A stretch of 64,000 bases of DNA from Schmidtea nova. Taxonomy: Eukaryota. The DNA lies in contig CM097882.1 of NCBI GenBank assembly GCA_044892505.1, positions 590,860,001 through 590,924,000 on the forward strand. Direction: 5' to 3'. The position numbers and the translations under genes were made by a program. Below, one piece after another: positions 17,212-23,200 of the stretch. The notes beneath the pieces were generated by a model. The model had not been told where the DNA came from and ran no database searches. It saw nothing but the letters and a program-made list of their open reading frames with translations. Each line of letters begins with the position of its first letter. Position 1 is the first letter of the stretch.

Positions 17212-20200
17212 CTATACCATCATTATCGTCTTTTCCTCGTATCGTTCTTCATCTTCTATTTGTTTCCAGAATTCTTTACCTTTCGTTCTTCTTTGAAATT
17301 CTTTCTGTATCTCTTCTGGTATTTCTATTCTTTGTTTCATAATTTTAATATCTGGCCATTGTATGGCTGTCGCTTTGTTTCTCTTTCTGTATCTCCAATA
17401 TACTATTATGCTTGTCGTCAGTATTCCATATGCTATTAATATTCCTATACTCATTAATCCTATTATTGTTTTTCCACTGTTTGTTTCTCTTTTATTCTGG
17501 TTCGCTTTTATCTCATTTTGGGTTTGAGCCTCTGGCTTCTTCTCTTTCGGTATTTGACTCTTGACTTTGTTCATTACTTCTTGGGTAGACCAATGGCGGT
17601 TTAGTAGTTGTTTGACGTCATTTTTCGTCGTCTGGTTTTCTACGCCTCCTGGTTCAGTCTGTTGTGATAGTTTCTCTGAGATCTGATATAATCCGCATTC
17701 TGGTTTTTCTGAACCTTTTCTGGTGAAGGTACATATCGCGTATGTCCTATTTACTTCCATTTTCTTTAATTCGACTTTTTCTTTATTCTTTATTTCTTTA
17801 CAGTGGGTTAGGTTGTCTTCTTCCACTTCTGGTTTAGGTTTTGTCCAACATATTACTTTAACTGTCTGATCGAGTCCTGTTAATGTCAGAGTTCTTTCTG
17901 TTTTAGTTAGTTCTTCTTCATCGAATTTCAGAGTTTCTCCTTTTTGGAATGTCTTGCAATTTTCTATTCCGGGTTGATCTTCTTGGGTTCCTTTCTCCCA
18001 TATACATATACTTCCTTCTTCATTCATTTGTATTTCTTGTATTTCGATTTCCTTGTTCGTTCGTGATTCGTCACTTGTCTGAACTTGGTATTCTCTTGGT
18101 TCGTTGTACCATACCCAGCATATTTTGTTACTTTGGTTTTTTCTCCTTATTGTCATAGCCATTTGTTCTATTCTTATTCCTTTATCGATACGTTTGGACA
18201 TTGCTATTATTAACGCTATGCATACGAAATCTTGTTGGGGTGATACTTCTTCTCTCGTGTTATTTGTGCTTCTCTCCCCTTCTCCTGGTTTGTCCGTTGT
18301 GTTTTTCATCTGAGTTGCTGGTTGATCTATTGTGTTTGTGATTTCTTTCTTTGTTGGTTTTACTCTATACCATTCAAGTCTAGGCGTTTCATATTTTTGG
18401 CATACGACTGTCTTAGGTAGCCCCGACTTCTTTTCCTTTTCTATTATGCATATCCGATGCATGGTCCCTCCATCCATTTCTTCTATTCGTATTATATCCT
18501 GGTCGGATTTTCGGATTATGCATTTTAGTGGGTTATTTTCTCCAATTGGTTCATCTTCTCTATACCAACATATTTTCTCGACTTCCTGGACATTTATTAT
18601 TTTTATCCCTGTCTGTGGGTTTATTGCTTCTTCCCTATTGATTAATGTCAATATTATTGTTAGACCCAACCATTTTGAACTCTGCGGTAGGCTTCTGGTT
18701 CGCCTTTCATATTTTTTCTCTTCTCCTTTAATCTCTTTTATTTCCTTGTCTTTGTTGTTCATTCCTAGTTTTGCGATTTTTGCTTCTTTCTTATTCCTGG
18801 TCGGTTTTGGTTCTTCTCGTGCGTTTTCTTCCAGTATTTCAACTCCATGGCTTGTACTGTCTATATTTGGCCATTGGGTTGCCGATTTCCTTGGGTTTAT
18901 CTTGCGTATCCATATAGCTGATAACGCGATTATTACGGGTATGGTCGCTGTTAATATTCCTAAACCGATTAGTTCTTTAATTTCTTTATTCTCGTCTGTT
19001 TGTATAGATTCGCTTTGGTTGAACATTATTCCGTATTGTCCCTTTAGTTTTCTCATTAATTGTTCCCGTTCCTCTTGCTTTCTTTTGACTTCCTTGATAA
19101 CTTCTTCGGGTGTCCATTTTGCTTGAGGGTCGATTATTATTTTTTCTGCGTCCATTTGTTCATTCGTTTGGCTTAGTTCCTTGAATTCGATTTTCCTTGC
19201 TATCCCTTTTGATGTCGCGTTTGCTGGTGTATAGTAGGTTTCGCATCTTTCTTGTTGGTTTCCTAGTGCGTCCATTTTTTCTATTGCGCATACTTCGTAC
19301 TCGCTATTAAATTGTAGTTTTTCGATCTTGATTTCTTTATTTGTTTTTCTGCACTCTCTTGATTGTCTTCTTATATGTTTCTGTACTATTATCCAACATA
19401 TTTCCAATGTTTTATTCTCTATTTTCCATAATGTTAGAGTTGCTGATGTCTTTTTCTCGGGTTTTGTCGTAACTTCTGGGTTTGTTGGTTGTCTGTCGCT
19501 TTTAAGGGTAGTGGTGTACTTCGGTTTTCCTTTGTTTTGTTGTTTCCTTTTATTTTTCCGTGTTAACGTTTTGGTTCTTGTTCTGGATGACGTTGTATAT
19601 ATTCCGCATTCTAGGTCGTTTATCGTTATCTGATCATTTTTCTTTACCAAACATATTTCGTAGGTTTGTTTACTTTCTAAACCTTTTATTTGCATCGTCG
19701 TTGTTCCTGTGTTTGTTCGACATTGTGGTGTCGTTCTTTTATTTACTTCTTTTTCGTACTTCCTCCAGCATACTCCTTTCACATTTGGTTCTATCTCTTT
19801 TATTTCTAATGTTATGTTTACTTTCTGCTTGATTTGTTTATTTCTCTTCTTCGTTCTCCTTCTGAACTTTATTACCTCTCCAGGTTGGAATGTTTTACAT
19901 TTTGTGGTACCTTTCTTGTTTGTCTCTTTTTCTAGTAGGCATAGTTTGTACGTCTTATCTGCTTTTACTTCGGATACTTTAATTACTTTATTCGTTGTTG
20001 GTTTTCGACTTTTCCTTATTTCATTTACGCCGATTTCCTCGTTATTCCTTGCCCAACATTTTATGTTAGTATTCTGTGTATCTTCTACTTCTGTTATTGT
20101 CATAGTTTCAATTTCTATTCCTTCCTCTAATCGTTTTATCATTATTAGTATGAGTGCTAAGCATAATACTTCCATTTGGTAAGACACTCTTTCTGTTTCG

Positions 20201-23200
20201 TTTGTGGCAACTCTTGCTTCAGGCCTCTCTATTGTAATTCGTAGGGTTGGTGTTGTTTGTTTATCTGTTGCCTGGGGTTTTTTGTTTTCTGTTCCCTGTG
20301 TCTCTGTCCTTCCACATTTTCCGATGATGTAATCTCCTTTGGGTGACTGTTGTATTGTCATGGCTGCTTTAGGTGTTTGGTATTTTGCACATGCGATTGT
20401 GTTGTGTGATCTTGGATGCTTTTGTTTTCTAACGGTGCATATTTTGTACCAGGTATTTAGATCTAGGTCGTTGATCTCTATGATTTCTTGCTCGTGTTTT
20501 GAGATTCTGCAATCCATCGGGCTATTTTGTCCCGTGATTTTGTCCTTTTTTGACCAACATACTCGTTCGATTCCTTTCGCGTTTTTTATTTGTATTATTG
20601 CCCTTTCTTCACATGTCATTCCTTGACTTGGGTTAATTAACGTTAAAATCACTGTTAATAATAGTAATTCTGGTTTGAAGAATGGTTTTATGGTTGATTT
20701 ATAACCTGTTCTTTGGGTGTCATTTTTATCTCCTTGGTCGTTTTTTCCTTGTTCTCCCTCTTCATCTCTTTGTTTTTCGTCTTTACTTTTCTTTTCTTCC
20801 TTGTCTCGTTTCTTGTCTTTTCTCTCGTTTTCCTCTTTATCGGGTGGTTCGTGATCGTTTGAATTTTCTGAGTTGTTACCGTCGTCACTATCTGTATTGT
20901 CATCTCCCCCTGGCTCGTCGAAAATGTCGTCCTCGACATTGATTTCTTCTATTAGTTTCGCATACGCTAATGTCGTTAGATTACTTGCCTCAAACTCTTG
21001 TGTTTCTACCTGTTCTGGTATTACTTTGTTAGTGGATTTATATTCCCAGATTTCCTTTTTGGCCTTGATCCAATTGTTGATGTATGTCTTCATCAATTCT
21101 TTCCATTTGCCTGTGTACTTTTCTTCCTTCGGGCTGGTTGTGATCCTTAGATCCTTTCTTTCCATGAACATCTTCAATATCTCTGGCCATTTATACGTTA
21201 TTAAGGCACTTCTTATACACCAGTTTTGGTTATGTTCTGTAAACTTATTAATCCTGAATGCTGGTTCGTTAGTATTAGGATTTATCCACGTAAGTATTGA
21301 TTCTGTTAGTTCGACGTTGTTCATCATTGCTAGTACACTGGGTTTCTTGACCGTATCAGTTAGGTGATATATTTCTTCCTGATTTGGGACGGTTTTAATG
21401 AAATTGACCATTTCCCAATTGTGTGTTAATAATGCTACATCCAATATCGAATTATCTTTATCTGTCTTTCCTGTAAGTCCTGCACCTGCTTTGTATAGTT
21501 CTTCTAATACCTTTGTTTTCGTTTTGGCCCTTGCTGCAAATACCATAAGTGTATCTCCTTTCTCGTCTATCATATTCATATTGCTTCCGCAATTTAGCAT
21601 TACTCTTGCAATTTCCATTACTTTCCTATCTTTGCCATTTCGTAGAGCTCTATGTATGGGCATTATTCCGTCCTTTGGTAGTAAAAATGTTACTGGCATC
21701 TCCTTTTTTATAGTCGTTATATCGTTACCATTGTATGTTCCTTTTGCGTATGCGTGTACTTTTTCAACTAATGCACCGAGTATTTCCAGTGCATGTTTAC
21801 TATTCTCGAATTCCGGTAACAATTCCTTTGCTTTTTCTTGTATCGCATCTAGTCTAGCTTGGTATGGTGCTTCTGCTTTGAAGAGTGGTGTGAGTTTCTT
21901 GTTACTTTCTCTTTCTTTTCTCTCCAAAACCTGTTTGCATTTTTCGGGGTGGTTTAGGGTTTTTACTAGTTCTTCATACTCATTTACTATCGTCTGGTAT
22001 TTCTCGTTAAAATTGTTTATGTCTTTGTATGTTATTAGTTTATCCAGCGGTTTCGCACACCATTTCTTAATCTTGTTGAATAAGGCTTCCTTCTCTTTAT
22101 CAAATTTGTGTTCCTCTTCATTCTTTGTGATGTATATGTTTCCTCTGTCCAGTAAGGTTAGTAATGTCTTTGGATCGCAAATAAATTTCAAAAGGTATCT
22201 TAACAACGCGTTTTGTCCTTCGCTGTATACTTCGTTTATGTCTAAGACCCATGTATCCTCTTCTGGTCGTTTCCATTCGATTAACTTACGGATCGTATTA
22301 CATTTGCCAATTTTGATTGCCTCTTTGATAAGGTCTCCTTTTATTAATTCGTCTATTTCCCACGTGGAGTTTGCTATTATATATTCCAACATAAGTTGGT
22401 GAGAACTCCATATCGCGTGATTTAGCACTGTTTTATCTTCTCTATCTCGTTCTGTCCAACTGAAACGGGCTTTTATCAACAGATCTACCATTTCTTTATC
22501 TGCTTGGTAGATGGCTGCTGTCATTAATGGAGTTTCCTGTTCACGATTCCCAACGTCTAGGTTTTGGTTTGTGTCTTTTGCGATTTTCAAGAATTCTTTT
22601 GCTCTTTCAATGTTTTTACACTGAATCGCATTATGTAAGGCTGGTTGTCCTCCTACATCTTTTAATAAGAGTATTTCAGGGATTTTTATCAATAATTCAG
22701 AAATAATTGGTTCGGTTGGTAATCCTTGTGCGTAACGGCTAATTATGTGTCTAATGTCCCTTGATATGCCTGCTTCGTCTCTAACATGCCATCTTCCCAT
22801 TATCTCTCTCGCCTTCAATAGGATTTCTTTATTTCTCATTTCTTTTTGCCTTATTTCTGTTTTGTCGTCTTCGCTGGTGTTTGCTCTGAGCATGTTTATC
22901 CTGGCTGTTTGTGATCTGGTTATTATTCGATTCTCTGGTGTTGTAGTTATCGTTTTAGGCACCTTCTTACATCTGCAGGTGTTTACATATATGGGTCGTA
23001 TTAATGGTCGGTCTATTAGCTTAACTTTGACATTATTGTCCTTTTTGTATACAATTTCATAAGGTCCTCTTCCAGGTCTTTGGAGTTTCTTAACAGTTCC
23101 TGGTATTATTTCGGGAGTTTCTATTATCACCCAATCTCCTGGTTTTAGATCGTTTGCTTTAACATTTTTCTTTTGGTCGTGCAAATCCTTATAACTTTCC

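What the first reader, a model, noticed from the sequence alone, without database searches (positions are those of the whole stretch)
17396..20673. Second surface-protein system: duplicated FN3-repeat type I membrane modules after integrase
Seen: module A (signal, FN3, hydrophobic patch, FN3 x3, TM, QWP) and module B (signal, FN3, hydrophobic patch, FN3 x2, TM, QWP) are clearly paralogous, e.g. VLCLALILIM vs FVCIALIIAM and ATQWP vs AIQWP. Knowledge: the L..Y.IC..C..Y.T pattern resembles the Cys-bearing FN3 of LRFN/ELFN/vasorin-type receptors. Inference: attachment proteins, receptor decoys or superinfection-exclusion factors; I know of no such module in LTR polyproteins.
Basis: partly seen in the sequence, partly recalled or inferred. 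Interest (0 to 1): 0.82.

Follow-up and report, generated by a model that had tools for sequence, protein, structure and literature searches.

The report
Giant retrotransposon's second surface protein
A giant virus-like jumping gene carries, besides its membrane-fusion protein, two related and conserved proteins predicted to sit on the cell surface and fold like adhesion molecules, which likely help it attach to neighbouring cells, a step so far unexplained for this group.

Summary
Confirmed and extended. The region is the C-terminal 1,155 residues of the polyprotein of a Burro-like gag-env-pol gypsy element (gB-type errantivirus). It holds seven paralogous cysteine-bearing repeats in two signal-repeat-TM modules (A vs B Z=38.7). 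Repeat A3 models as an FN3 sandwich (pLDDT 85; best Z 7.5). The repeats are under purifying selection (dN/dS 0.24 among 20 copies; 599 of 600 cysteines kept). Sister families carry one module plus a conserved cytoplasmic tail, even a family lacking RT and integrase. Module B is an older, faster-evolving paralogue, not a recent copy of A. More broadly, 10 of 13 related env-bearing gypsy proteins have a signal-ectodomain-TM unit after integrase, and 7 of 13 end in a class I PDZ-binding motif (controls 1 of 86); their ectodomains are not detectably homologous to ours. Best reading (0.5): an adhesion or attachment partner for the class III fusogen. Unresolved: topology of the inner hydrophobic patch, expression, receptor, donor gene. 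I found no description in the papers searched; the original Burro paper was not available.

The parts
17212..32211 (-). 4,999-aa ORF: env, PR, RT, RNase H, integrase, ankyrin repeats, modules A and B
20620..20679 (-). Internal signal-like segment of module A (aa 3845-3864), small residues at -3/-1 in three lineages
20371..20619 (-). Repeat A1 (4 core Cys)
20119..20175 (-). Hydrophobic patch A with invariant Cys4017; paralogous in position and sequence to the signal segments
19879..20118 (-). Repeat A2 (3 Cys; lacks the partner of its strand-C Cys)
19588..19830 (-). Repeat A3, modelled as FN3 beta-sandwich
19225..19455 (-). Repeat A4 (no counterpart in B)
18904..18972 (-). Predicted TM helix A, followed by basic residues and a decaying QWP
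18625..18681 (-). Internal signal-like segment of module B
18382..18624 (-). Repeat B1
18178..18234 (-). Hydrophobic patch B with invariant Cys4664
17938..18177 (-). Repeat B2 (3 Cys)
17677..17910 (-). Repeat B3
17389..17457 (-). Predicted TM helix B
17212..17388 (-). Conserved cytoplasmic tail ending in a hydrophobic, class II PDZ-like C-terminus
26932..28746 (-). Class III-type fusogen (Pfam PF24664, E 1.7e-70) with signal and TM, between gag and protease
23332..26340 (-). Protease, RT, RNase H, integrase
21352..22695 (-). Ankyrin-repeat region
32121..34160 (-). gag (zinc knuckles); out of frame with the long ORF in this copy, in frame in others
14086..16640 (-). Downstream accessory ORFs: TRAF-like (15261-16640) and coiled-coil (14086-15174)
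3221..6266 (-). LTR of about 3.05 kb (second copy 36377-39422)
50869..54336 (-). Second copy of modules A and B in the next tandem unit (99.97% identical)

Best explanation
These are two conserved, paralogous repeat modules of a giant gypsy retrotransposon polyprotein, predicted to be type I membrane proteins with disulfide-bonded FN3 ectodomains that likely act as the adhesion or attachment partner of the element's class III fusogen. Inferred mechanism: the internal signals would thread each module into the ER while protease, RT and integrase stay cytosolic; signal peptidase would release A and B. The inner hydrophobic patch is probably luminal, tied to repeat 2 by a disulfide. On the particle or producer-cell surface the FN3 chain would bind a receptor on a neighbouring cell, and the conserved tail would engage PDZ scaffolds at junctions, placing budding or fusion there. 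B keeps the tail and carries a faster-evolving ectodomain, possibly a second binding specificity.
For: Shown: repeats and paralogy; purifying selection on the repeats, shared-variant dN/dS 0.24 (0.18-0.33) among 20 intact-frame copies and 0.09-0.26 between families; 599 of 600 Cys positions kept; recent mobility, 5'/3' LTR identity 99.8-99.9% in 2 of 2 copies checked. All 9 sister-family places fetched carry a module, including a 4,118-aa family that lacks RT, RNase H and integrase but keeps env and the module. Of 11 database proteins with PF24664 plus RT, 10 have a signal-like segment after integrase and 8 also a clear TM; 2 of 2 further in-genome families do too. These 13 and the window element form one RT-IN clade (SH-aLRT 99, quick tree). 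Class I PDZ-type C-termini in 7 of 13 versus 1 of 86 other hits. Ectodomain Cys counts are even in every lineage only if the patch Cys is included. Predicted: FN3 fold of A3, pLDDT 85, Z 7.5, rmsd 2.5 over 71 residues. Literature: PMC13524379 states that entry by gB-type errantiviruses is unexplained because HSV needs gD, gH and gL besides gB; Dlg binds the HTLV-1 Env tail (PMC3395148 passage).
Against: No expression, particle, localisation or receptor data. Only 1 of 7 repeats has a confident model, with Z under 8, a level the tool calls common; the patch-plus-A2 model failed (pLDDT 43). Patch A has predicted dG -0.3 (0.3 to -0.3 in sisters; +2.2 in B) and basic residues behind it, so it could stop transfer and invert the topology. 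The relatives' ectodomains show no sequence homology to ours, so the shared slot may hold unrelated functions; P0057 has no such tail and three others lack the PDZ-type end. The 7 PDZ-type ends come from only three sub-clades, many controls are partial gene models, and this element's own end fits only the looser class II pattern. The element also carries TRAF, RING, BCL2-like and ankyrin cargo, which points to host manipulation as a general theme.
Confidence: 0.5

Rival explanations
1. Host-manipulation receptor mimic or decoy: the modules sit on the infected cell and alter adhesion, survival or immune signalling, together with the element's TRAF, RING and BCL2-like cargo, with no role in entry.
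For: FN3 is the fold of cytokine and adhesion receptors; TRAF-like ORF lies directly downstream in the window and in sister families; tails of 5 of 9 relatives carry tyrosine motifs; B is more polymorphic than A (0.25 vs 0.10 of columns).
Against: The post-integrase membrane unit tracks with the fusogen across the clade, including elements with no TRAF or ankyrin hit in the polyprotein; it is made in one ORF with the structural proteins; no tyrosine motif in this element's tail.
Confidence: 0.25
2. Assembly or trafficking cofactor for env (chaperone or budding scaffold, like herpes gH/gL or gM/gN), working in the secretory pathway without binding a target-cell receptor.
For: The tail is better conserved than the ectodomain (71-80% vs 34-73%); retained with env in the RT-less family; ambiguous patch topology.
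Against: A long multi-repeat ectodomain on a stalk that diverges faster than env (45-80% vs 77-79% identity between families) fits an outward-facing ligand better.
Confidence: 0.12
3. Superinfection exclusion: the ectodomain blocks the receptor used by related elements.
For: Many coexisting families with divergent ectodomains in one genome.
Against: Needs a receptor-binding function elsewhere in the element, and none is evident; no direct test.
Confidence: 0.1
4. Passenger host sequence with no function for the element.
For: Selection is weaker than on the enzymes (0.24 vs 0.00); the 20 copies were chosen for intact frames.
Against: dN/dS interval excludes 1; synonymous sites near saturation between families while all core Cys persist; no donor found.
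Confidence: 0.03

Closest known systems
Burro giant gypsy elements of planarians (PMC6431247, section 7 read)
   Same: About 27-30 kb, multi-kb LTRs, one ~5,000-aa ORF with env in frame between gag and pol, ankyrin repeats, MATH/TRAF, weak ubiquitin-like and BCL2-like matches. A sister family here has a 5,140-aa ORF with TRAF in a separate ORF, as described there for a Dugesia element.
   Different: That HHpred-based annotation names no FN3 repeats or second membrane protein; this family adds a second module (about 5,650 aa).
HSV/gB-type GAG-ENV-POL errantiviruses (PMC13524379)
   Same: Same gene order and fusogen class; by eye the env resembles Smed_errantivirus_5 and _6 in its supplement.
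   Different: No mention of fibronectin, FN3, Burro or a post-integrase membrane protein in the main text.
Two-component viral entry systems: herpesvirus gB with gD/gH/gL, paramyxovirus F with H/HN/G (recalled, except the HSV statement)
   Same: Conserved fusogen plus a separate, more variable surface protein.
   Different: No sequence or fold relation shown; here both come from one retrotransposon polyprotein and cooperation is untested.
Cellular FN3 adhesion and receptor proteins (LAR, Dscam, NCAM, contactin; LRFN/ELFN type)
   Same: FN3 sandwich, type I layout, F-G strand Cys pair as in ELFN-type domains (recalled), short tail with PDZ-like end.
   Different: Extra C-C' Cys pair, short B-C loop, strand A not in the modelled span, at most 21% identity to structural matches; no LRR or Ig domains; no identifiable parent gene.
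HTLV-1 Env tail binding Dlg (PMC3395148, passage)
   Same: Precedent for a retroviral glycoprotein tail using a PDZ scaffold.
   Different: There the motif is on the fusogen itself.

Membership tests
Ty3/gypsy LTR retrotransposon | PR-RT-RNase H-IN order, LTRs with TG..CA and target-site duplication | tested here: met
   (4-bp duplication in 2 of 2 dispersed copies)
gB-type GAG-ENV-POL errantivirus | Class III-type env between gag and pol | tested here: met
   PF24664 E 1.7e-70 at aa 1177-1771, signal and TM present
gB-type GAG-ENV-POL errantivirus | Infectious particle formation | not testable with these tools
   no RNA run or particle data
Burro | Giant single ORF with in-frame env, ankyrin repeats, MATH/TRAF, multi-kb LTRs | tested here: met
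Burro | BCL2-like and ubiquitin-like domains upstream of env | tested here: inconclusive
   Bcl-2 E 0.11, Ubiquitin_4 E 0.09, both below cut-off
Burro | Sequence placement with the named Burro-1 to -4 elements | not testable with these tools
   reference sequences not held; original paper not held
FN3 domain | Two-sheet beta-sandwich superposing on FN3 | tested here: met
   repeat A3 only: Z 7.5, rmsd 2.5, 71 aligned; FN3-type domains fill the top 50 by their titles
FN3 domain | Seven strands including strand A | tested here: inconclusive
   six strands modelled; alignment starts at residue 14-16 of the tenth fibronectin repeat; construct may have cut strand A
FN3 domain | Pfam fn3 score above curated cut-off | tested here: not met
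   best E 0.025, 15.2 bits vs 25
LRFN/ELFN/vasorin-type FN3 | Closest kinship to these Cys-bearing domains | tested here: inconclusive
   Fn3_ELFN E 0.064-0.13; not among top structural rows; no host donor
Type I membrane protein | Cleavable signal, luminal ectodomain, one TM, basic cytosolic flank | tested here: inconclusive
   signal, TM and charge bias present; inner patch A could also insert (dG -0.3)
Viral attachment protein | On particles, binds a host receptor, needed for entry | not testable with these tools
   needs bench work

The most novel reading that the evidence does not exclude
Flatworm-type gB errantiviruses use a two-component entry machine like herpes- or paramyxoviruses: a conserved class III fusogen plus an exchangeable adhesion-molecule mimic (FN3 or Ig ectodomain, PDZ-binding tail) encoded after integrase. 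This family gained a second such protein from a distant lineage and so holds two binding specificities for soma-to-stem-cell spread.
Probability: 0.35. Interest if true: 0.92.

Novelty: new variant of a known kind. Interest (0 to 1): 0.78.

Why it matters
How retrotransposons with a herpes-gB-like fusogen find and enter cells is a stated open question (PMC13524379). A conserved second membrane protein after integrase gives a concrete candidate for the missing attachment step and can be tested as a single protein. It would make these elements more like complex enveloped viruses than like Drosophila gypsy, and would bear on how they reach planarian stem cells from the differentiated tissues where BURRO1 is expressed on PIWI loss (PMC8532177, passages).

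Tried and rejected
No homologue of module A among proteins of 341-1,085 aa. The repeat profile against 1.84 billion representatives gave 71 hits, 66 in one cluster; those checked by Pfam were multi-FN3 proteins of bacterial type (11 of 13 scanned had families at 1e-12, 9 of them fn3), none had RT, IN or env; read as generic strand C-F similarity, not a donor. Host donor not found: Fn3_ELFN gave 1 sub-threshold match, and 30 of 123 host fn3 matches scored at most 9 bits with my profile. Foldseek gave no match at E<=0.001 in PDB or viral libraries. ESM Atlas: module A 0.78-0.84 to fn3 clusters, L091 tail 0.84-0.86 to FN3/Ig-like clusters; leads only. Homology of our repeats to the relatives' repeats: not detected. 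Second AF2 job uninformative. Complex prediction for patch with repeat 2 was not available, so that contact is untested. No RNA holder listed; DNA contigs cover all 30 bins but show nothing on splicing or expression. Rejected: patch A as a Met-initiated signal (Met absent in sister families and in B); QWP as a functional motif in A; B as a recent duplicate of A; homology of A's post-TM spacer to the tail (not significant, 145-714 of 2,000 shuffles); a B-only donor element (55 of 55 B-bearing loci checked have A upstream, of at least 150); assembly artefact for A+B (dispersed on three chromosomes). The env tree timed out and the RT-IN tree is the quick version. Earlier scan notes: none found.
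Full report
Context. The window holds almost two tandem units of about 33 kb, 99.9% alike. Each has, on the minus strand, a 3.05-kb LTR, gag, a 4,999-aa ORF and accessory ORFs. Pfam finds in the long ORF a Monjiviricetes-type fusion glycoprotein (E 1.7e-70), protease, RT, RNase H, integrase and ankyrin repeats, and nothing over the last 1,200 residues. Other copies have gag in frame, 5,640-5,740 aa. Two dispersed copies show TG..CA ends, 4-bp target duplications and 99.8-99.9% LTR identity. This anatomy matches the planarian Burro elements (PMC6431247, section 7 read) and the gB-type GAG-ENV-POL errantiviruses (PMC13524379). 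That the host is a planarian is my inference from this likeness.

Observation. Seven repeats with an invariant C-W and two further Cys lie in two modules: signal, A1, patch, A2-A4, stalk, TM; then signal, B1, patch, B2-B3, stalk, TM, tail. A versus B has Z 38.7; all 21 repeat pairs have Z of at least 3.5.

Fold. AlphaFold2 on A3 with a 35-row alignment gave pLDDT 85, pTM 0.72 and six strands. Against 48,161 chains the best match was the FN5 domain of LAR (Z 7.5, rmsd 2.5, 71 aligned) and the top 50 rows are FN3-type by their titles; none reached Z 8. The model starts at strand B of the tenth fibronectin repeat (numbering recalled), so C-W is strand C and the likely disulfides are C-C' and F-G. 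Pfam hits were weak but in the FN3 group (fn3 E 0.025, Interfer-bind 0.032, Fn3_ELFN 0.064 and 0.13; 4 of 7 repeats had any hit). The other six repeats are FN3 by homology only.

Selection. I took 20 copies with long open frames out of 93 scored. Shared variants give dN/dS 0.00 for the enzymes, 0.12 ankyrin, 0.15 for A repeats, 0.33 for B repeats, 0.24 (0.18-0.33) for all seven and 0.39 for linkers; 599 of 600 Cys positions are kept. Choosing intact frames biases against stops, not against shared replacement changes. Between families, module A regions give 0.09-0.26 where computable, with synonymous sites at 0.40-0.76.

History. An env query from a diverged neighbour found sister families with 5,140/5,161-, 5,115/5,147- and 4,118-aa ORFs. 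All 9 places fetched carry one four-repeat module, 50-67% identical to A, and no B; where the end is intact it is the tail that B carries here. The 4,118-aa family has lost RT, RNase H and integrase yet keeps env, protease, ankyrins and the module in frame. B's ectodomain is 33-36% identical to all others and a tree pairing A with B is rejected (AU p 0.002 over 297 columns; the signal comes mostly from repeat 1). So B is an old paralogue, either captured by recombination in front of the native tail or lost in the sisters. I cannot tell which.

Topology. A single polyprotein works if each signal opens and each TM closes a luminal stretch, with the inner patch passing through. Against this, patch A has predicted dG -0.3 and is followed by KR (recalled parameters). 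For it: patch B is +2.2; both TMs have strongly basic C-flanks; A2-A4 and B2-B3 carry sequons; and in every lineage repeat 2 alone lacks one Cys while the patch supplies one, making the count even, and a further Cys pair in A is gained or lost together. The patch also aligns with the signals, so signal-plus-repeat was the unit of duplication. Direct modelling failed. I put luminal, disulfide-tied patch at about 60%.

The wider pattern. An RT-IN search among proteins of 2,749-8,749 aa gave 97 hits, 11 with the same fusogen family. Ten of the 11 have a signal-like segment after integrase; 8 also have a clear TM; P0070 has a weak one, P0071 has an Ig domain (E 1.5e-5) and ends early, P0057 has none. 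Two more families in this genome have signal and TM. These 13 and our element form a clade (SH-aLRT 99, quick tree of 21 rows). Seven of the relatives share a repeat with an FN3-like L-x-P-x-T-x-Y motif (leave-one-clade-out, 0 of 200 shuffles each; the other five tested did not pass), which is not detectably homologous to ours and was not folded. Seven of 13 end in [ST]-x-V, against 1 of 86 other hits and 2.7% per position; they represent three sub-clades. Our family and its sisters end in a hydrophobic class II-like motif. PDZ classes are recalled.

Mechanism and rivals. Shown: sequence anatomy, conservation, distribution. Predicted: fold, TM segments. Inferred: processing, surface display, receptor binding, PDZ binding, cooperation with env. 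An attachment or adhesion partner explains why the unit tracks the fusogen, why its ectodomain varies more than env, and why the tail is kept (0.5). Host-signalling mimic (0.25), env cofactor (0.12), superinfection exclusion (0.10) and passenger (0.03) remain.

Literature. Nine full-text searches. None held all of LTR retrotransposon, fibronectin type III, gypsy, integrase, envelope or PDZ-binding motif, retrotransposon, envelope, gypsy; two listed Atlas-virus papers had one 'fn3' occurrence each and were not opened. PMC6431247: section 7 read, no 'fibronectin' in the text. PMC13524379: abstract, passages, first part of the discussion and keyword searches of supplements seen; no FN3 or Burro in the main text. 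PMC8532177, PMC3395148, PMC13238120: passages only. Grohme 2018 and Repbase entries were not available and could already note these domains.

Verdict. A real, conserved and apparently undescribed component of a known kind of element; interest 0.78.

Noticed in passing
L099:3136-3696 (+); window remnant ends near 13740: Intact copies and all sister families carry a 186-aa accessory ORF with Met-initiated signal, short helical-looking ectodomain, TM and basic tail: a third candidate membrane protein. It is cut short in the window's tandem unit.
   Followed up: partly
L114 (G000:C1:47181800-47191799) and other 4,118-aa frames: Multi-copy non-autonomous family lacking RT, RNase H and integrase but keeping env, protease, ankyrins, the FN3 module and TRAF.
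   Followed up: partly
window 14086-15174 (-): Coiled-coil accessory ORF also ends in a class I PDZ-type motif and is conserved in sisters (63-76%).
   Followed up: no
window 15261-16640 (-): Complete TRAF-like gene (RING, zinc fingers, coiled coil, MATH), 68-77% identical in sister families.
   Followed up: partly
window 7092-13542 (+): Degenerate BEL/Pao element with ~420-bp LTRs carrying ubiquitin repeats at 7503-8590.
   Followed up: no
window 1-64000; G000:C1:590830000-590974000: Four near-identical tandem units with a 500-N gap at window 45142-45641; real array or assembly artefact not settled.
   Followed up: partly
window 2386-2922 (-), 3721-4392 (-), 4495-5082 (-): RING-finger ORF in the 5' leader and two unannotated ORFs inside the LTR; one copy (L104/L105) has a largely replaced LTR (about 77% over short parts).
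   Followed up: no
P0057, P0061-P0065, P0067, P0070, P0072: Related elements carry two or three aspartic-protease-like domains, one after integrase; P0071 has an Ig-domain tail.
   Followed up: no
window 20371-20619 versus L111: Repeat A1 has lower synonymous divergence from the 5,140-aa family (0.40) than env, RT or IN (0.71-0.75), hinting at recombination between families.
   Followed up: no
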